Shown: positions 327-62,596 of the stretch, in pieces
Numbering within the stretch: position 1 is the first letter of the stretch
Layout of the letters: every line of letters starts with the position of its first letter
Origin: Escherichia phage KEP4
Direction: 5' to 3' (one strand)
DNA: 64,000 nt
Sequence record: PP047754
Made by a program: the position numbers and the translations under genes
Notes under the pieces: generated by a model
Told to the model about the DNA's origin: nothing
The model's input: the letters and a program-made list of their open reading frames with translations, nothing else
The model's database searches: none

Positions 327-785
327 ATGATATACGCATACAAAATTGAAACGATAACTAATGGAAAGGTCTACATCGGTGTGACCAATCACCCACAACG
401 AAGATATGATCAGCATTTTGCGAATGCTTTTCATCATGGAGTCCAAAGTGAATTGTATGATGCCATGCGTAAGTATGGAACATCTGGATTTACTTTCGTT
501 GTAATTGCTCAGACCGATGAAGTCCATAAATGGGAATTAGAGAAGCAACTCATCGCTCAATATAATTCTTATGAGATGGGTTACAACATGAATAAAGGCG
601 GTAATGATGGAAGTCATATGCTGGGTAAAACTGCAGCAAAATTGACATCTACAGGTGAACACATTGGTCTTGTTTCTCTCATAGATCCCCGTTGGGAATT
701 GTGTGAAATCGAACCCGTTTTAAGCAATGTTGACCACGGATTTGATTTTTCTTCCATGAAGATTAAAAGATTGACGACTAATTAG
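327..785 (+). CDS. GIY-YIG family endonuclease (Seg-like homing endonuclease candidate), 152 aa
   Basis: N-terminus IYAYKIETITNGKVYIGVTNHPQRRYDQHF matches the GIY...YIG...R...H motif; inserted between gp18 and gp19, which are adjacent in T4. Confidence 0.6.
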   Translation: MIYAYKIETITNGKVYIGVTNHPQRRYDQHFANAFHHGVQSELYDAMRKYGTSGFTFVVIAQTDEVHKWELEKQLIAQYNSYEMGYNMNKGGNDGSHMLGKTAAKLTSTGEHIGLVSLIDPRWELCEIEPVLSNVDHGFDFSSMKIKRLTTN

Positions 786-5290: not shown

Positions 5291-6613
5291 ATGACTAAGA
5301 AACTTGTAACCGAAGAAATGCGCAAACAGTGGCTGCCAGTTCTCCAAAAAGAATCTGAAGCTATTCAACCTCTGTCTGCCGAAAACGTAACCATCCGTCT
5401 GATGCAGAACCAGGCTGAATGGAACGCAAAAAACCTGGGCGAATCTGACGCACCTGGTTCTGTGAACAGCACTGTCGGTAAATGGCAGCCAGTTCTGATC
5501 GACATGGCAAAACGTCTGGCGCCGATCAACATCGCGATGGACTTCTTCGGTGTTCAGCCGCTGTCTGGTCCTGACGGTCAGATCTTTGCACTGCGCGCTC
5601 GCCAGGGTGTTGGTGACAGTTCCAACACCGCACAGTCTCGTAAAGAACTGTTCATGCAGGAAGCCGATTCCGGCTATTCCGGTGATGGTACTGTACAGGC
5701 TGGCGACCCGTCAGGCTTTAGTCAGGCTGAAATCGAAGGTTCTGGCTCTGGCGTGACCACTATCGGTAAAGGTATGCCGTCAACCGACGCGGAACTGCTG
5801 GGTACTACCACCAATCCGTGGGCGCGTGTTGGTATCACCGTTCAGAAAGCGACCGTTACTGCCAAGTCTCGCGGCCTGTATGCTGATTACAGCCATGAAC
5901 TGCGTCAGGATATGATGGCAATTCACGGCGAAGACGTGGATAATATCCTGTCTGACGTGATGGTAACTGAAATTCAGGCGGAAATGAACCGTGAATTCAT
6001 CCGTACCATGAACTTCAGTGCTGTTCGCTTCAAAAAATTCGGAACCAACGGTGTTGTTGATATCGCGCAGGACATCTCTGGTCGTTGGGCGCTGGAAAAA
6101 TGGAAGTTCCTGACTTTCATGCTGGAAGTTGAAGCGAACGGTATCGGTGTTGACACCCGTCGTGGTAAAGGCAACCGTGTTCTGTGTTCTCCGAACGTGG
6201 CATCCGCTCTGGCGATGTCTGGCATGCTGGACTATGCTCCAGTTCTGCAGGAAAACACTAAACTGGCTGTTGACCCGACTGGCCAGACCTTCGCTGGTGT
6301 TCTGTCCAACGGTATGCGCGTCTATGTTGACCCGTATGCTGTAGCAGAATATATCACTCTGGCATACAAAGGCGCAACTGCGCTGGATGCTGGTATCTTC
6401 TTCGCGCCGTATGTGCCGCTGGAAATGTACCGCACCCAGGGTGAAACCACCTTCGCTCCGCGTATGGCGTTCAAAACCCGTTACGGCATCTGTGCTAACC
6501 CGTTCGTACAGATTCCGGCTAACCAAGACCCGCAGGTTTACGTGACTGCTGACGGTATCGCTCAAGACAGCAACCCGTATTTCCGCAAAGGTCTGATCAA
6601 ATCTCTGTTCTAA
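5291..6613 (+). CDS. major capsid protein gp23
   Basis: 440 aa; motifs GVQPLSGPDGQIFALRA, FAPYVPL and KTRYGICANPF match T4 gp23; strongly biased, highly-expressed-type codon usage. Confidence 0.9.
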   Translation: MTKKLVTEEMRKQWLPVLQKESEAIQPLSAENVTIRLMQNQAEWNAKNLGESDAPGSVNSTVGKWQPVLIDMAKRLAPINIAMDFFGVQPLSGPDGQIFALRARQGVGDSSNTAQSRKELFMQEADSGYSGDGTVQAGDPSGFSQAEIEGSGSGVTTIGKGMPSTDAELLGTTTNPWARVGITVQKATVTAKSRGLYADYSHELRQDMMAIHGEDVDNILSDVMVTEIQAEMNREFIRTMNFSAVRFKKFGTNGVVDIAQDISGRWALEKWKFLTFMLEVEANGIGVDTRRGKGNRVLCSPNVASALAMSGMLDYAPVLQENTKLAVDPTGQTFAGVLSNGMRVYVDPYAVAEYITLAYKGATALDAGIFFAPYVPLEMYRTQGETTFAPRMAFKTRYGICANPFVQIPANQDPQVYVTADGIAQDSNPYFRKGLIKSLF

Positions 6614-8337: not shown

Positions 8338-8802
8338 ATGACAACCGTAAAAATCTCCGTCTGGGCATTCAACAATTTCACCAAATTTGACGCGTTTGTT
8401 AAAAACGCTCTGGGCATCACCAACATAGAATCTTTCACTTCTTATGACCGCGAAGATCAGGTCAAAATGCTTCGTCCTGAAATCGACCTTGATGCAATGC
8501 TGAACGCCATCAAGAATCACGATGACAATCTGGCTGAATTCGAAAACCTCCGCACCTCTATCTTCAAAAAGAATGGTGGCATCCGTAAGCTGAGCAACAA
8601 AACCATCAAATATGTCACCGAAGGGTTCTTTGTGGTGTTCGACTTCATAGAAACCAAGCCGAACGAACTTCGTAAAGATTTAGACGGCAACGTTATCACC
8701 CTGAAAATGTTTGGCGAAGCCAAGGCCGATATGATGCGTGACGGCCTGTGTGATGAGACATTCACATACGACGAATATTGCGATCAGTGCCAAGATCTGT
8801 AA
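8338..8802 (+). CDS. hypothetical protein, 154 aa (cassette-driven)
   Basis: ATG directly after the conserved aggaactacatc leader. Confidence 0.5.
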   Translation: MTTVKISVWAFNNFTKFDAFVKNALGITNIESFTSYDREDQVKMLRPEIDLDAMLNAIKNHDDNLAEFENLRTSIFKKNGGIRKLSNKTIKYVTEGFFVVFDFIETKPNELRKDLDGNVITLKMFGEAKADMMRDGLCDETFTYDEYCDQCQDL

Positions 8803-8870
8803 TTTGTTCTAAACCATTTGAACGGGTATGTTAAAATCATACCCAACCCCTACAAATAGAGGACTATAAC

Positions 8871-9188
8871 ATGGCTTGTAAAACACCAGAAATGAAATTA
8901 GTTGTTTCGTCAAAGGGGCGTCGCAGCCGCAGTCGAAATCTCATCACCCGTTTAGATATTCTACGTCAAAAATATCAAGGTCACAGCGTGTTCACACGCA
9001 TCCGTAACGCATTAAAGGAAGGGCGAATCGAGTTGGAGCTATATCGTCCAAACGGTTCGACTCGTGCGTATCAGACCACCGACGGTTTGCTGGAACTGAT
9101 CCGCCTCTCGGGAATGAGCATAGAACCTCGTTCATCAGGGACTCCCTTGTGCAGCCTGTATGTAATCGGCAATCTTGGGGCGCTGTGA
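8871..9188 (+). CDS. hypothetical protein, 105 aa
   Basis: ORF with GAGGA RBS. Confidence 0.45.
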   Translation: MACKTPEMKLVVSSKGRRSRSRNLITRLDILRQKYQGHSVFTRIRNALKEGRIELELYRPNGSTRAYQTTDGLLELIRLSGMSIEPRSSGTPLCSLYVIGNLGAL

Positions 9189-9193
9189 GTTCT

Positions 9194-9616
9194 ATGAAGA
9201 AGTATATCGTTCTTATAACGGGTTCCCGTTCTATAACTGAGCGGGATAAAATCTTCGCCAAACTGGATGAACTGTTAGATCCCCACGAGATCGAAACTTT
9301 TATAGAAGGTGAAGCGGTTGGTGTGGACTTGATATCTCGTGATTGGTGTGAAATCAATTATGTTCATGTTACACCAATGGAGATCCCTAAGAATTATCAC
9401 ACGATATATGGGAAAGGCGCAGGAAACCAACGTAACAAAGATATGTTAGACAAAGCTACAACCCTGGCCAAACAAAAAGGTCTTGAGGTCTTTGGAATTG
9501 CATTATGGGATGGTTCGTCTACTGGGACGCAAGACATGATTACCCGCATGAAAAAAGCAGGTGTCAATGTCAATATCACTCTCATGGGCAAACCCAAAAC
9601 CAAACGATTGTTATAA
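9194..9616 (+). CDS. SLOG/DUF2493-like Rossmann-fold protein, 140 aa
   Basis: N-terminal KKYIVLITGSRS motif typical of the LOG/DprA/YspA-type SLOG fold; assignment by motif only. Confidence 0.35.
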   Translation: MKKYIVLITGSRSITERDKIFAKLDELLDPHEIETFIEGEAVGVDLISRDWCEINYVHVTPMEIPKNYHTIYGKGAGNQRNKDMLDKATTLAKQKGLEVFGIALWDGSSTGTQDMITRMKKAGVNVNITLMGKPKTKRLL

Positions 9617-9619
9617 ATA
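9612..9619 (+). promoter_or_regulatory. T4-type late promoter TATAAATA
   Basis: Exact TATAAATA about 30 bp upstream of the 9651 ORF. Confidence 0.4.
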
Positions 9620-9650
9620 TGTTTGCCTTCACACCCATATGGAGTTAGCT

Positions 9651-9821
9651 ATGCTGCAATTAATTTTGATTCTTTGTGTCGCTTTTACCATGTACTTTCT
9701 GGCGCGAATCAGTTATATCACACTAAATGATCTGAAAGATACACCACGCGAACCTAAATTTATATTTCTAAAGAAATACACCAAAAAGTTCTGCGAGAAT
9801 TTTATCTATCATCTTCCGTGA
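9651..9821 (+). CDS. small hydrophobic membrane protein, 56 aa
   Basis: GGAG RBS; N-terminal hydrophobic helix LQLILILCVAFTMYFLA. Confidence 0.35.
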   Translation: MLQLILILCVAFTMYFLARISYITLNDLKDTPREPKFIFLKKYTKKFCENFIYHLP

Positions 9822-9822
9822 T

Positions 9823-9830
9823 TATAAATA
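9823..9830 (+). promoter_or_regulatory. T4-type late promoter TATAAATA
   Basis: Exact TATAAATA 22 bp upstream of ATG 9853, overlapping hairpin taccccc-aaaatt-gggggta. Confidence 0.45.
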
Positions 9831-9852
9831 CCCCCAAAATTGGGGGTATTTT

Positions 9853-10581
9853 ATGAACGCACAAATCTACGATGTCCTTTCCTCTGGTAATGCATTTAGC
9901 AACCCGCTTCCGTCCCTCTCCGGTCCCTCACAGGATTTAATCACCAGTGGTAGTACCAATATACCATTGATAACTGCCAACGCGACTCCGGAGATGCAGG
10001 CGGCTATGGTTGCTGGTGGACTAACACCAGAAAAACTCACAGCAGCCACCACCATGTATAGCGCCGCCAACACGGGGATAACGACACTGAACACATATGG
10101 AGACCAAAGTATCAATGACGCGTATTCTCGCATCGGTACTTCCGTGTCATACAAATCAGGTCTGAAGGGTATATCACGAGAGCCAAACAATTGTGATTTG
10201 ATCAACAAGGCTTTTGGTGTTGTTCAGGATTTAGGACGCCAATGGCTGAATGCTATGGAAGGTGCTCTACAGACCGTAACAAACAAGATATCGGAATTGT
10301 ATGACATGATTATGGAAGGTGCCTCAGAAGGGATGGCAAAACTACAGCAATTGGCTGCTGAAGTAACAGGACATATCAATGAGGCAATAACCGCCGTCAA
10401 TGGAGTTATAAACGATATCACCGATGGGATAGCTGCAGAACTTGCTCATATTGAAAGTATGATCAAAGAATGTCTAAACTTCTCTTTTGCGAATGTTCTT
10501 GGAGAATGGGCTAAAGATCTCTGTGCTGGAGGCGTTATTGATAAAATAGGGACTCCAGAATTAAAAGAGTCCCTGAAATAA
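9853..10581 (+). CDS. hypothetical late protein, 242 aa
   Basis: ORF immediately downstream of a consensus late promoter. Confidence 0.5.
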   Translation: MNAQIYDVLSSGNAFSNPLPSLSGPSQDLITSGSTNIPLITANATPEMQAAMVAGGLTPEKLTAATTMYSAANTGITTLNTYGDQSINDAYSRIGTSVSYKSGLKGISREPNNCDLINKAFGVVQDLGRQWLNAMEGALQTVTNKISELYDMIMEGASEGMAKLQQLAAEVTGHINEAITAVNGVINDITDGIAAELAHIESMIKECLNFSFANVLGEWAKDLCAGGVIDKIGTPELKESLK

Positions 10582-11265: not shown

Positions 11266-11760
11266 ATGACAGGTGTACAATTCAAAAACGAAAATCCTAA
11301 TTTCGCGGCTTCCGATAAATGGCGCTTAACTATCGGAGACCTAATATTGCTTACTCGTTCAATACATGACTTCAGTATTCCTGGAGTGTATTCTGAAGGT
11401 ATCGAGGGACCATCCCCTGGCGATGTGCTCAACTCCATACCTTCAGAACGTCTCACGTATGACCCCATCGTATTTACGTTCGTTATCGATGAGAGTTGGT
11501 ACAACTGGGAACAGATTTACAATTGGATTGCGTCCAATGCTGGATCTGATTTAGCTGTTAGCCGTGACATCACCATCGACCTTCTTGATAACATGAATCG
11601 ACCTGTTGGTCTACAATTGTTGTTGGAAGAAGCCCGTCCCACAGCTTTGGACAACGTATTGGTGGATGTGGATGCTGCGGTTCCCCAACTGGTCACGACT
11701 GTCACGTTCAAATATTTGAAACTGACTCCGACTCGCGTCACCCGCGAAATTGATAAATAA
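11266..11760 (+). CDS. hypothetical protein, 164 aa
   Basis: ORF with AAAGGTG RBS. Confidence 0.5.
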   Translation: MTGVQFKNENPNFAASDKWRLTIGDLILLTRSIHDFSIPGVYSEGIEGPSPGDVLNSIPSERLTYDPIVFTFVIDESWYNWEQIYNWIASNAGSDLAVSRDITIDLLDNMNRPVGLQLLLEEARPTALDNVLVDVDAAVPQLVTTVTFKYLKLTPTRVTREIDK

Positions 11761-13003: not shown

Positions 13004-13032
13004 ATACTCCATAATATTGGGGGAAATTAGTG

Positions 13033-14532
13033 ATGTCTGAGATCCAAATAGTCAAAGTGAACGAAGTTAGAATGCGGATCCTCGCCGAGGATTATATCCG
13101 TGAAGAACTCAACGATTACTTCAAATTTGAAGATCCTAATTTCCAACCGAATCCGTTCAGTAAATGGGACGGCGTAGTGCGGCTGTTCACAAAGAGTTCT
13201 GGGCTTATCGACATCGGCCTGTTATTTGAGGTGTTCAAATTCTGTAAGATGAACGGTTACACCATCAAATTAGATCCGACCTTAAAATATATTCAAGATA
13301 TTCCGGATGAAGAAATTCATGCGTTCATCGATACATTGAATGCGGTGTACCGAGACGAAAACAAACAATATCAAAAAGCGATTGTCCGTGATTATCAATT
13401 TGATTCTGTTGCCACAGCAATACGCCAAAGCAGATGTGTCCTCGAAGCTGCCACGAGTGCTGGCAAATCCTTTATTTTGTACATCATGGCGCGTTACTAC
13501 AGGCAACGCAGAGATGCCCTCGAAAGTAATCTGAGGACGTTAATTGTTGTACCATCCATTCATTTGGTGACTCAGTTGTATGACAACTTCGAAGAATATA
13601 GCCACGGGACAGAATGGAAGCCATTGATGAACGTCCAGACAATATACGAAGGGGCAACGAAAGAGATTTTCAAACCCATAGTTATTTCAACTTGGCAAGG
13701 TATCCAGAACCAACCCAAAGAGTGGTTCCATCAATTTGGAGATATCGTCGTTGACGAAGTACATACATCAAAATCAGATAAATTGTCTTACATCTTGAAC
13801 AACTGTATTAACGCTGATCAACGTTTGGGAGTAACCGGAACCCTGGCGAATACAAAGGTCGCAGGGTTACAAGTCGTTGCTCACTTTGGCGCATATCATA
13901 AAATTATTACAGCGCGCGATTTAATCGATCTAGGATATGCGGCAGACATCAATGTTAATATGATTGAAGTCATACATCCTATGGCAGACTGTATTGAAAT
14001 GCACGGTGCTGAGTATCAAAAGGAAATAGAATTCCTCATTGCTAACGAACGCCGAAATGAATTGATAGCTCGAATGGCTCTATCTTTGAAAGGGAACGTG
14101 GCAGTCATGTTCGAACGTATCGATGCACACATGATGTTGGTTTATGAAATGCTATCGGCAGTCAAGAAAAACGTATTCGTCATCAACGGGGAAGTCAAGA
14201 CAGAAGTTCGTAAACAGATTCAGGCTGCTATGGAAGAAGGGGAAGATATAACACTGTTGGCATCATATGGTACTATGCAACAGGGCGTATCTATCAAAAA
14301 ACTCCATCATCTGATATTGGCCCATCCCAGCAAATCTTATATCCGTGTTATACAGACATTGGGGCGTTTGATGCGTCAGCATTCCTCTAAGGATGTTGCG
14401 CGAATCTGGGACCTGGTAGACAACCTGCGTTACAACGGTTCCTACAACCATGCTCTCAGGCATTCTCATGAGAGATATAAATTTTATCTTATGGAGCGCC
14501 ACCCTGTTAAAATGAAAAAAGTGGCGCTCTAA
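13033..14532 (+). CDS. uvsW: UvsW-like SF2 DNA/RNA helicase
   Basis: 499 aa; Walker A LEAATSAGKS, DEVH box (VVDEVHT); T4 UvsW size; lies after the capsid region as in T4. Confidence 0.75.
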   Translation: MSEIQIVKVNEVRMRILAEDYIREELNDYFKFEDPNFQPNPFSKWDGVVRLFTKSSGLIDIGLLFEVFKFCKMNGYTIKLDPTLKYIQDIPDEEIHAFIDTLNAVYRDENKQYQKAIVRDYQFDSVATAIRQSRCVLEAATSAGKSFILYIMARYYRQRRDALESNLRTLIVVPSIHLVTQLYDNFEEYSHGTEWKPLMNVQTIYEGATKEIFKPIVISTWQGIQNQPKEWFHQFGDIVVDEVHTSKSDKLSYILNNCINADQRLGVTGTLANTKVAGLQVVAHFGAYHKIITARDLIDLGYAADINVNMIEVIHPMADCIEMHGAEYQKEIEFLIANERRNELIARMALSLKGNVAVMFERIDAHMMLVYEMLSAVKKNVFVINGEVKTEVRKQIQAAMEEGEDITLLASYGTMQQGVSIKKLHHLILAHPSKSYIRVIQTLGRLMRQHSSKDVARIWDLVDNLRYNGSYNHALRHSHERYKFYLMERHPVKMKKVAL

Positions 14533-14903: not shown

Positions 14904-15242
14904 ATATTATTTCTCACGTGTTAGCAAACTTGGCTACATAATAATGTCATGCTCTGTTTAGACCAAATAAAATATTTTACTTGTTGAATAAAAATCGCTT
15001 TCTTGTTGAACAATCCGTGCGTAATATACGAGTTGTGAGCTTTGCGAGCAACGAGTATTATCACGAGCGAAGCGAGTAGACTGATAAAGAAAGGTTTTAT
15101 TAAAACAGAATATTATAAATGCCGTCAGGCATTTATTTATCGCGCGTAGGGCAATTTATCACTTGTTCTATAACTACAAACACGCGATACTAATTTGCGT
15201 CAAATATGACTTGAACCCCACTATATTTTGAGGATACAACTA
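14904..15242. promoter_or_regulatory. 340-bp AT-rich intergenic control region upstream of gp45
   Basis: Largest non-coding gap in the replisome region; contains TATAAATg (15114-15121), clustered GCGAG/CGAGC repeats (about 15038-15078), duplicated cttgttgaa. Confidence 0.4.
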
Positions 15243-15911
15243 ATGCAAGAGATCACTCTCTCCGAACGCACTTTACAACTGCTGGCTAACTTTGAAACCA
15301 TCTGCCCCTCTATCGTTCTGGCACCTGGTAAAAAGTTGCGCACTGTTAACGATTCCAGTACAGTTATCGCTATTGCCGACATTGACGAAGACTTCCCGTT
15401 CGAATTCCCGATTCTGGATCTGACCAAATTGCTGGCAATCCAGCGTCTGCCGAGTTTTAAAGGCGGTAAAATTGAAATGTCGGAAGACCACATTTTGCTG
15501 AAAGGTGAAAACTCCCAACTGCAATTCTGGCGTTCCGCTAAAGAACTGACTGTCGTTCCGGCAGACAGCATCGATCTCCCGTCTGTAGAATTTGAAGCAA
15601 CAGTCACTCCTGAAAAAATGAAAGAGCTGACCCGCGCATGTTCTACTCTGGGCCACAAAACTGTACGCCTGGTTGCCAGCGGCGGTAAAACTCGTCTGGT
15701 GGGCACGACCACTACTATCGACAATTCCAACGATTACACTGTTGAGTTGGGTGAAACAACTCTGGGTGATTTTGCTATGCCTGTTGATGTGGTCAACCTG
15801 AAAATGATCGAAGGCAACTACGTGATCCGCGCCTGTGCCGAAATGCAACTGGTTAACTTCCAATCCGCAGACGGCACCATCAACTATTACGTCGGCATGC
15901 AGCTGGATTAA
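15243..15911 (+). CDS. sliding clamp gp45
   Basis: 222 aa; N-terminus LSERTLQLLANFETICPSIVL resembles T4 gp45 (DTTALLKNFATINSGIML); upstream of clamp loader genes. Confidence 0.8.
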   Translation: MQEITLSERTLQLLANFETICPSIVLAPGKKLRTVNDSSTVIAIADIDEDFPFEFPILDLTKLLAIQRLPSFKGGKIEMSEDHILLKGENSQLQFWRSAKELTVVPADSIDLPSVEFEATVTPEKMKELTRACSTLGHKTVRLVASGGKTRLVGTTTTIDNSNDYTVELGETTLGDFAMPVDVVNLKMIEGNYVIRACAEMQLVNFQSADGTINYYVGMQLD

Positions 15912-15989: not shown

Positions 15990-16979
15990 ATGTCTAACAT
16001 CACTATCGTCACAGATCAATACGCGTGGGAAAACAAATATCGTCCTGACAATCTGGATGAGATCGTCCTCCCTTCAGACGTCCGTGCAAAAATCCATGGC
16101 TATGTTACATCAGGTAATGGAAACATCCCCTCAATGCTGTTCTATTCCCCTCAGCCTGGTACGGGCAAGACTACTTCTGCTCTGGCTGTGTGCAACGAAA
16201 TCGGTTGTATCAAACCGTTGACGATCAATGCGTCACTGGATAACAGCATTGATGTCATCCGTGACCGTGTTATTCAATACGCAACTGGCGTCAGTGTTTT
16301 CGGTGGCCGCAAAGTCGTTATCCTCGATGAAGTTGAGCGACTTTCCATGGCGGCGCAGGAATCCCTGAAAGGCATCGTAGAGAAAGTCTCAAAAAACTGC
16401 TCCTTCATCCTGACGACTAATGCGAAACAGCGCGTTAACGAACCTCTGCGTTCCCGCTGTCGTGAAATTGATTTTATCTGGTCTGAAAAGGAAGCAGATG
16501 AAGTTAAACTTCAATTCATGCGTCGTTGCGCAACTATCCTGACAGAGGAAGGCATTCCGTATGAAGCTGGTGTAATTGCTTCCATTGTGAAATCATATTT
16601 CCCAGATAATCGCAAAATTATGGGAACTCTTCAGGATAATGCCACCACGTTTGGTAAAATCGATGAACGCGCTCTGGCACAGGTTAAAGCAGGGGAATTC
16701 CAAGCGTTGGTGGATTTCCTAAAAACCAATGATTGGGCTGGGATGAAGCAGTGGGTGACCGACAACCAAAACTACATCACTGAAGATTTTTATTCCCGTT
16801 TCTTCCATTTCTGCGTTCCCCAGAACAAGGAAAAGACTCCTTTGATTCAAAACGAGTCAATCCCTGATCTGGTATGTGTCTGTGGTCAGTCTCAGATTGA
16901 ACATCGTTCCGTCGGCGACGTCTGGTTACACGGCGTTTACTTCTTGACTAACGTCATGCTCAACATCAAATGGAAGTAA
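15990..16979 (+). CDS. clamp loader large subunit gp44 (AAA+)
   Basis: Walker A PQPGTGKTT, Walker B VILDEVERL, SRC motif PLRSRCREI. Confidence 0.9.
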   Translation: MSNITIVTDQYAWENKYRPDNLDEIVLPSDVRAKIHGYVTSGNGNIPSMLFYSPQPGTGKTTSALAVCNEIGCIKPLTINASLDNSIDVIRDRVIQYATGVSVFGGRKVVILDEVERLSMAAQESLKGIVEKVSKNCSFILTTNAKQRVNEPLRSRCREIDFIWSEKEADEVKLQFMRRCATILTEEGIPYEAGVIASIVKSYFPDNRKIMGTLQDNATTFGKIDERALAQVKAGEFQALVDFLKTNDWAGMKQWVTDNQNYITEDFYSRFFHFCVPQNKEKTPLIQNESIPDLVCVCGQSQIEHRSVGDVWLHGVYFLTNVMLNIKWK

Positions 16980-16983
16980 TATT

Positions 16984-17406
16984 ATGGCCGCTCCGTCACT
17001 GTTCGATTACCTCGGTGCGTTGAATAGCACCAAAGAGAATCTGTTGATGACCGAAGACCCCGAAATCAGAAAGGCTTTTGATCCTTTCATGACTCGGCGC
17101 GGCCTTGCTCAGAGTAAAGACACGCTTGTGGTTGCTGAACAAATGAACCGCTTCCATGCCATTACTCCTTGGATGCAATGGAACCTGGCGTTTCATAGCA
17201 TTCCGGCAAAACGTCGCTATGGCAAGTGGTCTAAGAAGGGAGCTATGGATCCTGATGTGAAATTGATTTCTGAGTATTATTACATCAGTCCTGAAAAGGC
17301 TTCAGAATATGTTCGATTCCTGCCGAAAGAAGTCCTGGCTGAAATCAAGGCGAAGGTCGAACGTTCCAACAGCAACGAAAAAGCCAAACCGCGCAAGGCT
17401 AAGTAA
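16984..17406 (+). CDS. clamp loader small subunit gp62
   Basis: 140 aa between gp44 and regA as in T4; KRRYGKWSK motif. Confidence 0.6.
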   Translation: MAAPSLFDYLGALNSTKENLLMTEDPEIRKAFDPFMTRRGLAQSKDTLVVAEQMNRFHAITPWMQWNLAFHSIPAKRRYGKWSKKGAMDPDVKLISEYYYISPEKASEYVRFLPKEVLAEIKAKVERSNSNEKAKPRKAK

Positions 17407-62129: not shown

Positions 62130-62361
62130 TTATGCCTGTACAGGTTGTGGTAATTCTTTCAGTACCAGAAGGTCTTGTGCTGAACGCCATACGCCTGAAT
62201 TAGATCCATGTTCTGAATGTGGCGGTGAAATCAAAATGGTCATTGGAGCACCAAAGATCGTATCTGGTGTCCGTGGCCCACAATCCGCACCTGATGGCTT
62301 CAAAGACGTATTGCGTCATATTAAGAAGCAGTCTGGGAAGGGGAATACAATCGATGTCTGA
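62116..62361 (+). CDS. FmdB-type zinc-ribbon protein, 81 aa
   Basis: GGAGG RBS; MPFYDYACTGCGNSF ... CSECGG has the CxxC...CxxC zinc-ribbon pattern. Confidence 0.45.
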   Translation: MPFYDYACTGCGNSFSTRRSCAERHTPELDPCSECGGEIKMVIGAPKIVSGVRGPQSAPDGFKDVLRHIKKQSGKGNTIDV

Positions 62362-62596
62362 TCAACAAATAGCACAAGTGCTCACACCAGATTCTTTTTC
62401 TGAATTGGTGTTGATGAGAGCAAGCCAACGCAAGGAATCAATCCTTGAAACGATGGCCAGTGTTTGTGAAGAGTATGACATCGAAGAAGCAAAGGTCAAA
62501 AAATTGATCACGCCTCCTCTTCTGTCAAGGCTAACAGCTGAATGTTCTGATGCTCGGTTGTTGAAGGGTGAATTGAAATCTAAAAAACTCATTTAA
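62354..62596 (+). CDS. hypothetical protein, 80 aa
   Basis: ATG after AAGGGGA; overlaps previous stop. Confidence 0.35.
   Translation: MSDQQIAQVLTPDSFSELVLMRASQRKESILETMASVCEEYDIEEAKVKKLITPPLLSRLTAECSDARLLKGELKSKKLI

What the first reader, a model, noticed from the sequence alone, without database searches (positions are those of the whole stretch)
9194..9616. Stand-alone SLOG/DUF2493-like nucleotide-binding domain
The KKYIVLITGSRS N-terminus is characteristic of the SLOG (LOG/DprA/YspA) Rossmann-type fold. SLOG domains bind nucleotide-derived ligands and occur as sensor domains in bacterial defence systems. A free-standing phage copy could sequester a host signalling nucleotide or take part in nucleotide or DNA processing.
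Basis: inference. Interest (0 to 1): 0.4.

Follow-up and report, generated by a model that had tools for sequence, protein, structure and literature searches.

The report
Phage SLOG domain with clamp-docking tail
A small phage protein is confirmed to belong to a very common nucleotide-binding family of unknown function, and in this phage lineage it ends in the same short peptide as the late-transcription factor gp33, which in phage T4 uses that position to dock onto the DNA sliding clamp, so it probably works on DNA rather than as a free decoy for host alarm signals.

Summary
ORF 9194..9616 (+, 140 aa) is a stand-alone SLOG domain of the YAcAr/DUF2493 family: Pfam PF10686 at 35.1 bits against a cut-off of 28.2, and an AF2 model with pLDDT 93.7. 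Its nearest solved relatives are DprA Rossmann domains. The window is a Kuttervirus (Ackermannviridae). The family is huge (19,240 clusters at 50% identity), mostly stand-alone, with no characterised member that I could find. The domain assignment is therefore already known, and a 2022 survey had already proposed that viral SLOGs counter ADP-ribose-derived signals.

The new element is a disordered C-terminal peptide, GKPKTKRLL, invariant within this lineage and absent elsewhere in the family. Its best match among all protein C-termini of the phage proteome is the tail of the gp33 homologue. This holds in two distant genera (Serratia phage 3M: KPKSKRLI against KPRSKKLI, with no equal among 2,000,000 random 8-mers). 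In T4 that gp33 position is the essential sliding-clamp-binding motif, and the same ranking recovers gp43 in a T4-type genome.

Distant homologues sit among helicase, primase, polymerase and nucleotide-metabolism genes, not ADP-ribose-processing genes. No defence-sensor profile matches. LOG's catalytic Glu is replaced by Met.

My best reading, which is inference, is a DprA-like base/ssDNA-binding module tethered to the phage clamp. Function remains untested.

The parts
9194..9616 (+). SLOG (YAcAr/DUF2493) gene, 140 aa plus stop
   Evidence: ORF. PF10686 at 35.1 bits, above GA 28.2. AF2 pLDDT 93.7. Foldseek finds DprA, ShosA and Moco-carrier in PDB and DUF2493 proteins in BFVD.
9194..9586 (+). 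SLOG core domain, residues 1-131 (b1 4-10, a1 17-27, b2 33-38, a2 44-54, b3 59-61, a3 66-95, b4 98-105, a4 110-121, b5 125-130)
   Evidence: Secondary structure of the AF2 model. The family profile match ends near residue 128-131 in distant members.
9221..9229 (+). G10-S11-R12 loop after strand 1 (equivalent to the DprA 'G-S/T/A-R' ssDNA-binding motif)
   Evidence: G10 131/134, S11 105/134 and R12 130/134 in distant members. Aligned to DprA VGSR by hmmsearch. Motif defined in PMC3950713.
9308..9328 (+). G39-E-A41-V-G43-V-D45 (GxAxGxD; the YpsA-clade GxD/E signature; DprA SG-A-GID)
   Evidence: G39, G43 and D45 are 134/134 and A41 is 122/134. Aligned to DprA SGLAKGID. The GxD/E signature is described in PMC6459960.
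9410..9445 (+). G73-K-G-A76-G77-N-Q-R80-N81-K-D-M84 at the start of the helix after strand 3 (R-N equals DprA Arg143-Asn144)
   Evidence: R80 and N81 are 134/134, M84 is 129/134, and G73, A76 and G77 are nearly invariant. DprA's F/L/Y-x-x-R-N/D motif is described.
9506..9538 (+). W105-D-G-S-S-T-G111-T112-Q-D-M115 loop after strand 4 (counterpart of LOG PGGxGTxxE, but with Met115 at the catalytic Glu position)
   Evidence: W105 109/134, G107 117/134, S109 122/134, G111 133/134, T112 131/134. Position 115 is M 91, C 16, T 12 as the three commonest residues, with Glu not among them. The LOG motif is quoted.
9587..9613 (+). Lineage-specific C-terminal tail G132-K-P-K-T-K-R-L-L140: candidate sliding-clamp-binding (gp33-type) peptide
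   Evidence: Invariant G132, P134, K135, K137, R138 and L139 in 21 Ackermannviridae homologues. Absent from distant family members. Low pLDDT of about 60. Best C-terminal match in the proteome is gp33, in two genera.
8871..9188 (+). Upstream partner gene (105 aa, phrog_4663), ending 5 nt before the SLOG ATG; unannotated in RefSeq SE14
   Evidence: ORF with an AGGA ribosome-binding site. phrog_4663 at 1.3e-60. Conserved next to SLOG in Kuttervirus, Limestonevirus, Taipeivirus and Miltonvirus. AF2 pLDDT 72.8 with no significant fold match.
62219..62596 (+). gp33 homologue (late-transcription co-activator); the true start is probably Met46 at 62354; tail ...LKSKKLI at 62570..62593
   Evidence: PF16805 Trans_coact at 1.6e-18. 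Homologues start at M46 and the K-S-K-K-[LI]-hydrophobic tail is invariant.
15228..15911 (+). gp45-type sliding clamp (proposed docking partner)
   Evidence: 27% identity to T4-type gp45 over 226 aa, E 5e-17. 57% identity to the phage 3M 'DNA polymerase processivity factor'. Clamp-loader genes follow at 15990..17406.
9612..9619 (+). T4-type late-promoter-like TATAAATA overlapping the SLOG stop codon (a second copy lies at 9823..9830)
   Evidence: Exact matches; only 3 in the window and not enriched overall. They sit upstream of the 56-aa ORF 9651..9821 and of the DUF7217 gene 9853..10581.

Best explanation
The gene encodes a minimal, stand-alone SLOG domain of the YAcAr/DUF2493 family. Its invariant pocket (G10-S11-R12, G39-x-A-x-G-x-D45, R80-N81, G111-T112) is the same pocket that DprA uses to hold one flipped-out base and the adjacent phosphate of single-stranded DNA. 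In the Ackermannviridae the domain has acquired a disordered basic C-terminal peptide, K-P-K-[TS]-K-R-L-[LI]-COOH, that copies the extreme C-terminus of the phage's gp33 homologue. By analogy with T4, I propose that this peptide docks the protein onto the phage gp45-type sliding clamp, or onto whatever partner the gp33 tail binds. That would concentrate the SLOG domain on phage DNA at forks, nicks and recombination intermediates, where it binds ssDNA or an exposed nucleotide, or senses a nucleotide ligand there. The small basic protein encoded by the coupled upstream gene is probably its partner. Shown here: family membership, fold, conserved pocket residues, the shared tail and its statistical significance, and the replication-type gene neighbourhoods of homologues. 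Inferred: that the tail binds the clamp, that the pocket binds DNA rather than a free nucleotide, and any biological role.
For: Family and fold.

Pocket residues invariant family-wide. The closest solved sequences are DprA Rossmann domains, with the GSR and SG-A-GID motifs aligned. DprA's own ssDNA-binding motifs are defined as G-S/T/A-R and x-x-x-R-N, with Arg52, Arg143 and Asn144 holding a thymine in the pocket (PMC3950713). ShosA, another DprA-like SLOG, binds ssDNA (PMC11961720).

Tail: it is invariant in the lineage and absent elsewhere, and has low pLDDT. It is the unique best strict C-terminal match to gp33 among 208 ORFs in SE14 (19 against 12) and among 204 ORFs in Serratia phage 3M (33 against 12; KPKSKRLI against KPRSKKLI). 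In phage 3M, 0 of 2,000,000 random and 0 of 47,823 internal 8-mers reach that score. The gp33 tail is itself invariant in 21 homologues. In T4 the gp33 C-terminus is the essential clamp-binding motif and is interchangeable with those of gp43 and gp55 (PMC2988020; PMC7892883). The same ranking recovers gp43 from the gp33 tail in a T4-type genome. The phage encodes a gp45-type clamp.

Context: homologues lie next to DNA polymerase, Dda helicase, helicase/primase and nucleotide-metabolism genes. In 72 viral loci the commonest neighbour domains are DnaB_C, Toprim, dCMP deaminase, 5'-3' exonuclease and Pol A. ICP1 HelB is an SF1B helicase fused to DUF2493. In this window UvsY, a PD-(D/E)XK exonuclease, UvsW, the clamp and the clamp loader lie 2-8 kb downstream.
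Against: No experiment exists for any YAcAr protein that I could find.

The Ackermannviridae DNA polymerase and gp55 do not end in the same peptide as gp33 (K[KR]RVNLLSMMGK.. and ..QQNNGDC/..KRGVKCQ), whereas in T4 all three are alike. So it is not established that the gp33 tail is this lineage's clamp-binding motif. It is also basic, whereas T4's is acidic.

With a tolerance of 0-2 residues from the C-terminus, the Kuttervirus genome alone gives decoys of similar score (17-18). The strong statistics therefore come mainly from phage 3M.

DprA's stacking aromatic (F/L/Y of F-x-x-R-N) is Gly77 here, and DprA binds ssDNA as a dimer with a larger, nine-stranded domain.

Replication-module neighbourhoods are also where phages keep many early accessory and anti-defence genes, so context discriminates only weakly.

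The gene itself sits between head and tail genes, and its timing of expression is unknown.
Confidence: 0.4

Rival explanations
1. It is a free cytosolic counter-defence factor. The SLOG pocket binds (as a sponge) or cleaves the N-glycosidic bond of an ADP-ribose-derived or other nucleotide immune signal produced by host TIR/Thoeris-type systems. This is the first reader's main suggestion and the published prediction for viral SLOG domains.
For: Iyer, Burroughs and Aravind 2022 assign viral stand-alone SLOG domains mainly to the YpsA-like clade and predict they degrade or sense cADPR-like signals, citing fusions to Macro, NADAR and DUF4326 in some viruses. The YpsA-clade GxD/E signature is present. 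ThsA uses a SLOG domain to sense 3'cADPR (abstracts). The strictly invariant polar pocket fits a specific small ligand.
Against: No PADLOC defence-system profile, ThsA included, matches at E<=10. No Macro, NADAR or Nudix domain is among the 25 commonest Pfam families in 150 neighbours of 72 viral loci. The nearest sequence and structure relatives are DprA and ShosA, not ThsA. A soluble sponge has no obvious need for a gp33-type docking tail. The family occurs in viruses of bacteria, archaea and amoebae alike, which favours a host-independent role.
Confidence: 0.25
2. It is a nucleotide-pool enzyme: a LOG-like phosphoribohydrolase or N-glycosidase acting on free (d)NMPs or modified nucleotides. 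That would serve nucleotide-pool remodelling in a phage that replaces thymidine with a hypermodified base.
For: SLOG/LOG/DrHyd enzymes hydrolyse N-glycosidic bonds of nucleotides. R80 aligns with the R of LOG's conserved helix motif (my own knowledge of the LOG family, not tested here), and G111-T112 with LOG's GT. Neighbours of homologues often include dCMP deaminase, ThyX/ThyA, MazG, RNR and dUTPase.
Against: The position of the Glu in LOG's PGGxGTxxE motif is Met115 here, and M, C or T across the family. The preceding position is D, H or N, so it is not conserved either. No Pfam hit to Lysine_decarbox/LOG for this protein. The family is common in phages with unmodified DNA. The tail is unexplained.
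Confidence: 0.12
3. The shared tail is not a clamp-binding motif. It could be a proteolysis or remodelling tag, such as a ClpX 'C-motif 2' basic-hydrophobic degron like the MuA C-terminus ...RRKKAI (from my own memory of the literature, not checked here). Or it could be a generic DNA-backbone-binding basic tail carried by both gp33 and SLOG. The role of the SLOG domain is then independent of the clamp.
For: The tail is basic plus two hydrophobic residues at the very C-terminus. It differs in charge from the T4 clamp-binding motif ...TLDFLL. The Ackermannviridae polymerase tail differs from it. T4 gp33 also contacts upstream DNA through its backbone.
Against: Its position in gp33 is homologous to the T4 clamp-binding epitope, a few residues after the last helix of the flap-binding body. 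The invariance of each residue, including Ser/Thr and Pro, is more than a non-specific basic tail needs.
Confidence: 0.12
4. It is a virion-packaged protein, injected with the DNA to act at the very start of infection, since the gene lies between head and tail morphogenesis genes.
For: The gene lies between the major head protein (5291..6613) and the tail-completion gene (11266..11760), next to probable structural genes such as DUF7217. Iyer et al. note that ADPr-processing genes are sometimes embedded in morphogenesis clusters and may be packaged.
Against: I found no proteomic evidence. Homologues in other phages lie in replication modules, not structural modules. UvsY, an exonuclease and UvsW are interleaved in the same region, so the cluster is mixed.
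Confidence: 0.05

Closest known systems
YAcAr / DUF2493 (Pfam PF10686), a YpsA-like family of the SLOG superfamily
   Same: Passes the Pfam gathering threshold. Same five-stranded Rossmannoid fold. All family-wide invariant residues are present. Stand-alone and about 120-140 aa, like most members. TM 0.7-0.8 to many viral DUF2493 models, including mycobacteriophage D29 gp61-like, Marseillevirus and Pandoravirus proteins.
   Different: It carries a 9-residue basic C-terminal extension found only in the Ackermannviridae-like subclade, and is paired with a lineage-specific small upstream gene.
DprA/Smf recombination mediator (Pfam PF02481; PDB 3UQZ, 4LJK, 4LJR, 5MLL) and the DprA-like antitoxin ShosA (8ZVA)
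   Same: These are the best PDB fold hits (E about 3e-4, probability 1.0) and the best PDB sequence hits for the family profile. The G-S-R loop, SG-A-G-I-D motif and R-N helix motif are shared. In DprA they form the pocket that holds a base of ssDNA. ShosA binds ssDNA.
   Different: It is much smaller (about 130 aa and 5 strands, against about 205 aa and 9 strands). It has no SAM or DML1 domains. The aromatic residue of F/L/Y-x-x-R-N is Gly. No PF02481 hit for this protein. TM scores are only 0.45-0.6.
LOG / 'lysine decarboxylase-like' cytokinin phosphoribohydrolases (PF03641) and Moco carrier proteins (2IZ7, 3IMK)
   Same: Same superfamily and fold, with a glycine-rich loop and a G-T loop after strand 4.
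   Different: The Glu of PGGxGTxxE is replaced by Met115, and there is no Pfam hit.
SLOG sensor domain of Thoeris ThsA (binds 3'cADPR)
   Same: Same superfamily. This is the basis of the sponge or sensor hypothesis.
   Different: No detectable profile similarity (PADLOC). Not among the Foldseek PDB hits with E<=0.015. No SIR2 or other effector is attached.
T4 sliding-clamp clients (gp43, gp33, gp55) with C-terminal clamp-binding motifs
   Same: A short disordered peptide at the extreme C-terminus, near-identical to that of the phage's own gp33. The phage encodes a gp45-type clamp and clamp loader.
   Different: The peptide is basic-hydrophobic (K-[ST]-K-[KR]-L-hydrophobic) rather than acidic-hydrophobic (LDFL[LFY]). 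The lineage's polymerase and gp55 end differently. No SLOG protein has been reported as a clamp client, as far as my searches show.

Membership tests
SLOG superfamily, YAcAr/DUF2493 family (PF10686) | Match to the curated Pfam model above its gathering score | tested here: met
   35.1 bits against 28.2, E 1.1e-8, residues 5-59. The precomputed PF10686 label is on all full-length homologues.
SLOG superfamily, YAcAr/DUF2493 family (PF10686) | Three-layer alpha/beta Rossmannoid fold with a central five-stranded sheet | tested here: met
   AF2 pLDDT 93.7 with b-a-b-a-b-a-b-a-b topology. Foldseek TM 0.7-0.8 to viral DUF2493 models, and SLOG proteins (DprA, ShosA, Moco carrier) among the top PDB hits.
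SLOG superfamily, YAcAr/DUF2493 family (PF10686) | [quoted passage not shown] | tested here: met
   G10-S11-R12, plus G73..A76-G77..R80-N81..M84, all invariant or nearly so in 134 distant members.
SLOG superfamily, YAcAr/DUF2493 family (PF10686) | GxD/E signature of the YpsA-like clade (PMC6459960) | tested here: met
   G43-V44-D45; G43 and D45 are 134/134.
DprA/Smf (PF02481) | 'G-S/T/A-R' ssDNA-binding motif | tested here: met
   G10-S11-R12, aligned to DprA VGSR/IGTR by hmmsearch.
DprA/Smf (PF02481) | 'F/L/Y-x-x-R-N/D' motif in the helix | tested here: not met
   R80-N81 are present, but the F/L/Y position is Gly77, which is Gly in 129/134 family members.
DprA/Smf (PF02481) | Match to the DNA_processg_A model, an extended domain of about 205 residues, and SAM/DML1 accessory domains | tested here: not met
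   No PF02481 hit for this protein at E<=10. The core is 131 residues with 5 strands. Foldseek TM normalised to DprA length is 0.26-0.42.
DprA/Smf (PF02481) | Binds ssDNA and loads RecA-type recombinase | not testable with these tools
   Needs EMSA or fluorescence anisotropy, and strand-exchange assays with the phage UvsX.
LOG phosphoribohydrolase (PF03641) | PGGxGTxxE motif with catalytic Glu | tested here: not met
   The sequence is D106-G-S-S-T-G111-T112-Q-D-M115: Met at the Glu position, and M, C or T family-wide. No PF03641 hit.
Nucleotide-signal sponge or sensor SLOG (ThsA-like) | Detectable similarity to a defence-system SLOG sensor | tested here: not met
   No PADLOC hit at E<=10. ThsA is not among the leading Foldseek PDB hits.
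Nucleotide-signal sponge or sensor SLOG (ThsA-like) | High-affinity binding of a cyclic ADPR isomer or other immune nucleotide | not testable with these tools
   Requires ligand-binding assays.
Sliding-clamp clients of T4-like phages | Short peptide at the extreme C-terminus shared with established clients of the same phage | tested here: met
   It is the best strict C-terminal match to gp33 in SE14 (19 against 12) and in phage 3M (33 against 12), with P about 0 in phage 3M. It is not shared with the polymerase or gp55 of this lineage, so this is met for gp33 only.
Sliding-clamp clients of T4-like phages | Peptide is flexible and separated from the folded body | tested here: met
   pLDDT falls to about 60 for residues 131-140, after strand 5.
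Sliding-clamp clients of T4-like phages | Physical binding to the gp45-type clamp | not testable with these tools
This needs AF-multimer or biochemistry.

The most novel reading that the evidence does not exclude
YAcAr/DUF2493 SLOG proteins, one of the commonest uncharacterised protein families of DNA viruses, may be DNA-replication or recombination accessory factors: minimal DprA-like base/ssDNA-binding modules. Different lineages would tether them to the replisome in different ways: a clamp-binding peptide copied from gp33 in Ackermannviridae, fusion to a Dda-type helicase in ICP1, and translational coupling to polymerase or helicase genes elsewhere. They would then be a previously unrecognised class of sliding-clamp client, not anti-defence nucleotide sponges.
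Probability: 0.25. Interest if true: 0.7.

Novelty: new variant of a known kind. Interest (0 to 1): 0.45.

Why it matters
DUF2493/YAcAr proteins are present in a large share of tailed phages and in giant viruses: 19,240 clusters at 50% identity in the library searched. I found no tested function for any of them. The only published idea is that they counter ADP-ribose-based immune signals.

A lineage in which the domain carries the same docking peptide as a known sliding-clamp client gives a concrete, cheap and falsifiable handle on the whole family. The tests are peptide-clamp binding, ssDNA binding, and a tail-deletion phage.

If the tether is real, it moves the family from 'anti-defence sponge' to 'replisome or recombination accessory', and adds a new client type to the phage clamp tool-belt. 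It would also define the clamp-binding motif of Ackermannviridae, which differs in charge from the T4 paradigm.

If it is not real, the finding is an ordinary member of a known domain family.

Tried and rejected
1. **'GTP-binding domain' label.** This is the PHROG 289 and RefSeq annotation, and I reject it. The phrog_289 profile is 500 positions long. It matches three separate genes here: SLOG at positions 20-146, ORF 9651..9818 at 161-207, and the DUF7217 gene at 259-500. It evidently includes a mis-fused 475-aa annotation from Salmonella phage 38. Nothing supports GTP binding.
2. **NCBIfam and direct PDB sequence search** with the single protein gave no usable hits. The narrow lineage profile against PDB gave noise only.
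3. **The search for related loci with the broad alignment** failed for lack of a conserved seed. A subset sharing WDGKS[RK]GT worked.
4. **Covariation of SLOG tails with clamp motifs in other lineages.** The KVP40-like Vibrio phage D481 SLOG has no tail. Metagenomic members with suggestive tails (P0061 ..SLDMFYE, P0050 ..TTLDDF, P0099 ..KSKHLF, P0037 ..KSRRLI, P0038 ..KSKRLF) have no cultured relatives. Their contigs lack gp33 and clamp genes. The result is inconclusive.
5. **Partner protein 8871..9188.** Weak excisionase and PrtN hits are not significant. The AF2 model is only moderate and has no significant fold match. Its function is unresolved.
6. **Promoter and terminator scan and TATAAATA search** around the operon did not settle expression timing. 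A literature search for Ackermannviridae transcriptomes returned nothing relevant.
7. **Multi-domain family members** turned out to be tandem SLOG repeats without informative fusion partners.
8. **The paper that defined YAcAr** (Burroughs et al. 2015) is not held in the library.
Full report
**1. The observation**

The window carries an ORF from ATG 9194 to the stop at 9614-9616 on the + strand. RefSeq annotates a longer 155-aa form from an upstream GTG at 9149 in a 99%-identical phage. That form would overlap the conserved upstream gene, and 140-aa homologues start at the ATG. By DNA identity the window is a Kuttervirus of the Ackermannviridae, 99% identical to Salmonella phages ISTP3, SE14 and SFP10 and related to Det7 and ViI.

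**2. Family and fold**

- Pfam PF10686 (YAcAr, 'YspA, cpYpsA-related SLOG family', the former DUF2493) matches at 35.1 bits, above its gathering score of 28.2.
- An AlphaFold2 model built on 21 homologues is confident (pLDDT 93.7, pTM 0.87). It shows a b-a-b-a-b-a-b-a-b Rossmannoid fold; only the last ten residues are poorly defined.
- The best Foldseek PDB matches are DprA from S. pneumoniae and H. pylori and the DprA-like ShosA. Moco-carrier/LOG-type proteins follow, with modest TM scores of 0.45-0.6.
- Against predicted viral structures, Foldseek finds dozens of stand-alone DUF2493 proteins at TM 0.7-0.8. They come from tailed phages, an archaeal virus, Marseilleviruses and Pandoraviruses.
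- An exhaustive profile search finds 19,240 cluster representatives at E<=1e-3. Most are 115-140 aa.

It is also not new: some GenBank and UniRef records already call this protein a DUF2493 or YspA-cpYpsA SLOG protein.

The commoner label 'GTP-binding domain' comes from PHROG 289. That profile is 500 positions long and matches three adjacent genes of this window. It evidently incorporates a mis-fused 475-aa annotation from Salmonella phage 38. I regard the label as an artefact.

**3. Conserved residues**

In 134 distant family members the following are invariant or nearly so, and all are present here:
- G10, (S11), R12
- G39, A41, G43, D45
- W51, A52
- G73, K74, A76, G77
- R80, N81, M84
- A103, W105, D106, G107, S109, G111, T112

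G43-x-D45 is the GxD/E signature of the YpsA-like clade. A family profile searched against PDB sequences finds DprA first. It aligns G-S-R with DprA's G-S/T-R and GeArGvD with DprA's SGxAxGID.

Wang et al. showed that in H. pylori DprA the G-S/T/A-R loop (Arg52) and the helix motif F/L/Y-x-x-R-N/D (Arg143, Asn144) form the small pocket that holds one thymine of ssDNA. They also noted that LOG enzymes are instead marked by PGGxGTxxE (PMC3950713).

Here the G-S-R and R-N parts are present, but the stacking aromatic is Gly77. The position of LOG's catalytic Glu is Met115, and M, C or T across the family. So the protein keeps the SLOG base/phosphate pocket, is not a LOG-type hydrolase by that criterion, and is not a bona fide DprA either: it has no PF02481 hit, five strands rather than nine, and no SAM or DML1 domains.

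**4. Published ideas**

Iyer, Burroughs and Aravind (2022, PMC9503650) surveyed viral SLOG domains. They placed most in the YpsA-like clade, noted that they are typically stand-alone, and proposed that they degrade or sense cADPR-like immune signals. They stated that this is experimentally uncharacterised. Their jumbo-phage paper mentions YAcAr SLOG domains in the same light.

The one experimental context I found for DUF2493 is ICP1 HelB, an SF1B (Dda-type) helicase with a C-terminal DUF2493. I found no paper characterising a stand-alone YAcAr protein.

**5. Gene context**

In this window the gene follows a conserved 105-aa ORF (8871..9188, phrog_4663) that ends 5 nt before the SLOG start codon. 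That ORF is unannotated in RefSeq SE14. The pair is conserved in Kuttervirus, Limestonevirus, Taipeivirus and, with a 4-nt overlap, Miltonvirus. Downstream lie, in order:
- a 56-aa ORF and a DUF7217 gene, each preceded by TATAAATA
- a tail-completion gene
- UvsY
- a PD-(D/E)XK exonuclease
- UvsW
- the gp45-type clamp
- the clamp loader

Distant stand-alone homologues sit in the following places:
- overlapping the end of a DNA polymerase gene (Klebsiella JustaPhage)
- 14 nt upstream of a Dda-like helicase (Vibrio D481)
- after helicase and primase genes (Bacillus Bak6)
- within a MazG/nucleoside-hydrolase/ThyX block (Rhodobacter RcIroh)

I then ran a census of 150 genes within two positions of the SLOG gene in 72 diverse IMG/VR contigs. 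It is led by DnaB_C (7), Toprim (6), dCMP deaminase (4), 5'-3' exonuclease (4), Pol A (3), ThyX and MazG. No Macro, NADAR or Nudix domain is among the top 25 families.

This context is what a DNA or nucleotide-metabolism role predicts. It is only weakly discriminating, because many early accessory genes live in the same modules.

**6. The tail**

Within the Ackermannviridae-like subclade the protein ends in an invariant G-K-P-K-[TS]-K-R-L-[LI]. This extension is missing from the rest of the family and has low model confidence, as expected of a short linear motif.

I scanned all C-termini in the window. The only close match is ORF 62219..62596 (...LKSKKLI), which is the homologue of T4 gp33, the late-transcription co-activator (PF16805, 1.6e-18).

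In T4 the extreme C-terminus of gp33 is the sliding-clamp-binding motif and is essential for activation. The C-termini of gp33, gp55 and the polymerase gp43 are highly similar and interchangeable (PMC2988020; PMC7892883).

Tests of the match:
- **Kuttervirus SE14.** I ranked the C-termini of all 208 ORFs by BLOSUM62 similarity to the SLOG tail. gp33 comes first (19 against 12).
- **Serratia phage 3M** (Miltonvirus; SLOG only 45% identical). The SLOG ends KPKSKRLI and gp33 ends KPRSKKLI. The score is 33 against a next best of 12 among 204 ORFs. None of 2,000,000 composition-matched random 8-mers, and none of 47,823 internal 8-mers of that proteome, reaches it.
- **gp33 tail conservation.** The tail K-S-K-K-[LI]-hydrophobic is invariant in 21 homologues.
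- **Positive control.** The same ranking in a T4-type genome, using the gp33 tail TLDFLL, returns the polymerase gp43 (ASLDFLFG) first of 262 ORFs (21 against 14).
- **Clamp presence.** The phage encodes a full-length gp45 homologue (E 5e-17).

**7. Caveats on the tail**

- The lineage's polymerase (K[KR]RVNLLSMMGK..) and UvsW (HPVxMKKVxL) have conserved basic-hydrophobic C-termini, but not the same peptide. gp55 ends quite differently. So, unlike in T4, there is no three-way agreement showing that this peptide is the clamp-binding motif.
- The peptide is basic, whereas T4's is acidic.
- If the motif is allowed to lie 0-2 residues from the end, two decoys in the Kuttervirus genome reach similar scores: a GIY-YIG endonuclease ending ...KIKRLTTN, and RIIA.
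- The peptide could instead be a ClpX-type degron or a DNA-contacting tail.
- I could not run a complex prediction, and I could not pair suggestive tails of other family members with clamp motifs.

**8. Verdict**

The sponge reading is a published, untested hypothesis that gains no support here: there is no PADLOC match and there are no ADPr-processing neighbours.

The evidence favours, at moderate confidence, a DNA-associated role. In that reading the protein is a minimal DprA-like base/ssDNA-binding module that Ackermannviridae tether to the partner of the gp33 tail, most probably the sliding clamp.

That tail is the one new feature and it makes the family's function directly testable. I rate the finding as a new variant of a known kind, with an interest of 0.45.

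Noticed in passing
window 9194..10581; PHROG 289: The 'GTP-binding domain' annotation carried by this gene in many RefSeq phage records traces to phrog_289. That 500-position profile matches three separate adjacent genes here: SLOG, the 56-aa ORF 9651..9818, and the DUF7217 gene 9853..10578. It apparently includes a mis-fused 475-aa ORF from Salmonella phage 38 (UniProt A0A0N7CDB8). The label looks like an annotation artefact.
   Followed up: partly
window 8871..9188 (+): A conserved 105-aa gene (phrog_4663) sits immediately upstream of, and is probably translationally coupled to, the SLOG gene. It is not annotated in RefSeq SE14. It has a variable, disordered, Arg/Lys-rich N-terminus and a conserved small a-a-b-a-b-b core with no significant structural match.
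   Followed up: yes
window 8824..8844 (+): A perfect 7-bp inverted repeat, GGGTATG-TTAAAAT-CATACCC, lies in the intergenic region between ORF 8338..8802 and the partner gene. No T-run follows it. It could be an RNA hairpin or a protein-binding site.
   Followed up: no
window 9612..9619 and 9823..9830 (+): Two of the only three exact T4-type late-promoter motifs (TATAAATA) in the 64-kb window lie within 220 nt of each other. One overlaps the SLOG stop codon and one sits 23 nt before the DUF7217 gene. The motif is not enriched in the window overall, so Ackermannviridae late promoters may use a variant consensus.
   Followed up: partly
SE14 locus L087 2713..5709 (-); 3M locus L089 11010..14003 (-); window 13030..14532 (+): The Ackermannviridae DNA polymerase (..K[KR]RVNLLSMMGK..) and the UvsW helicase (..HPVxMKKVxL) both have C-terminal basic-hydrophobic peptides conserved between Kuttervirus and Miltonvirus. 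These may be further clamp- or partner-docking motifs.
   Followed up: partly
window 62219..62596 (+): The mechanical ORF for the gp33 homologue is 125 aa, but homologues in other genera start at Met46 (window 62354) and are about 80 aa. The first 45 codons are probably not translated.
   Followed up: partly
window 15228..15911 (+): The gp45-type sliding-clamp gene lies in a stretch that carries no annotation in RefSeq SE14 (record gap 105593-106642), although it is annotated as a processivity factor in Serratia phage 3M.
   Followed up: yes
window 327..785 (+): A GIY-YIG (SegD-like) homing-endonuclease ORF between the tail sheath and tail tube genes ends ...SMKIKRLTTN. This contains a K-x-K-R-L core resembling the SLOG and gp33 tails, three residues from the end. 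It may be chance.
   Followed up: no
proteins P0061, P0050, P0099, P0112, P0171; loci L093-L096: Some distant YAcAr proteins carry short C-terminal extensions reminiscent of other clamp-binding classes..KTSLDMFYE and ..ATTLDDF (T4-like acidic-hydrophobic)..AKSKHLF (Ackermannviridae-like)..SQLAFDLDSA and ..QPSLFLL.. (bacterial beta-clamp-like). Their source phages could not be identified.
   Followed up: partly
proteins P0040, P0041, P0174: A few family members are tandem duplications of the YAcAr domain within a single polypeptide. This suggests that the functional unit may be a dimer, as it is for DprA.
   Followed up: no
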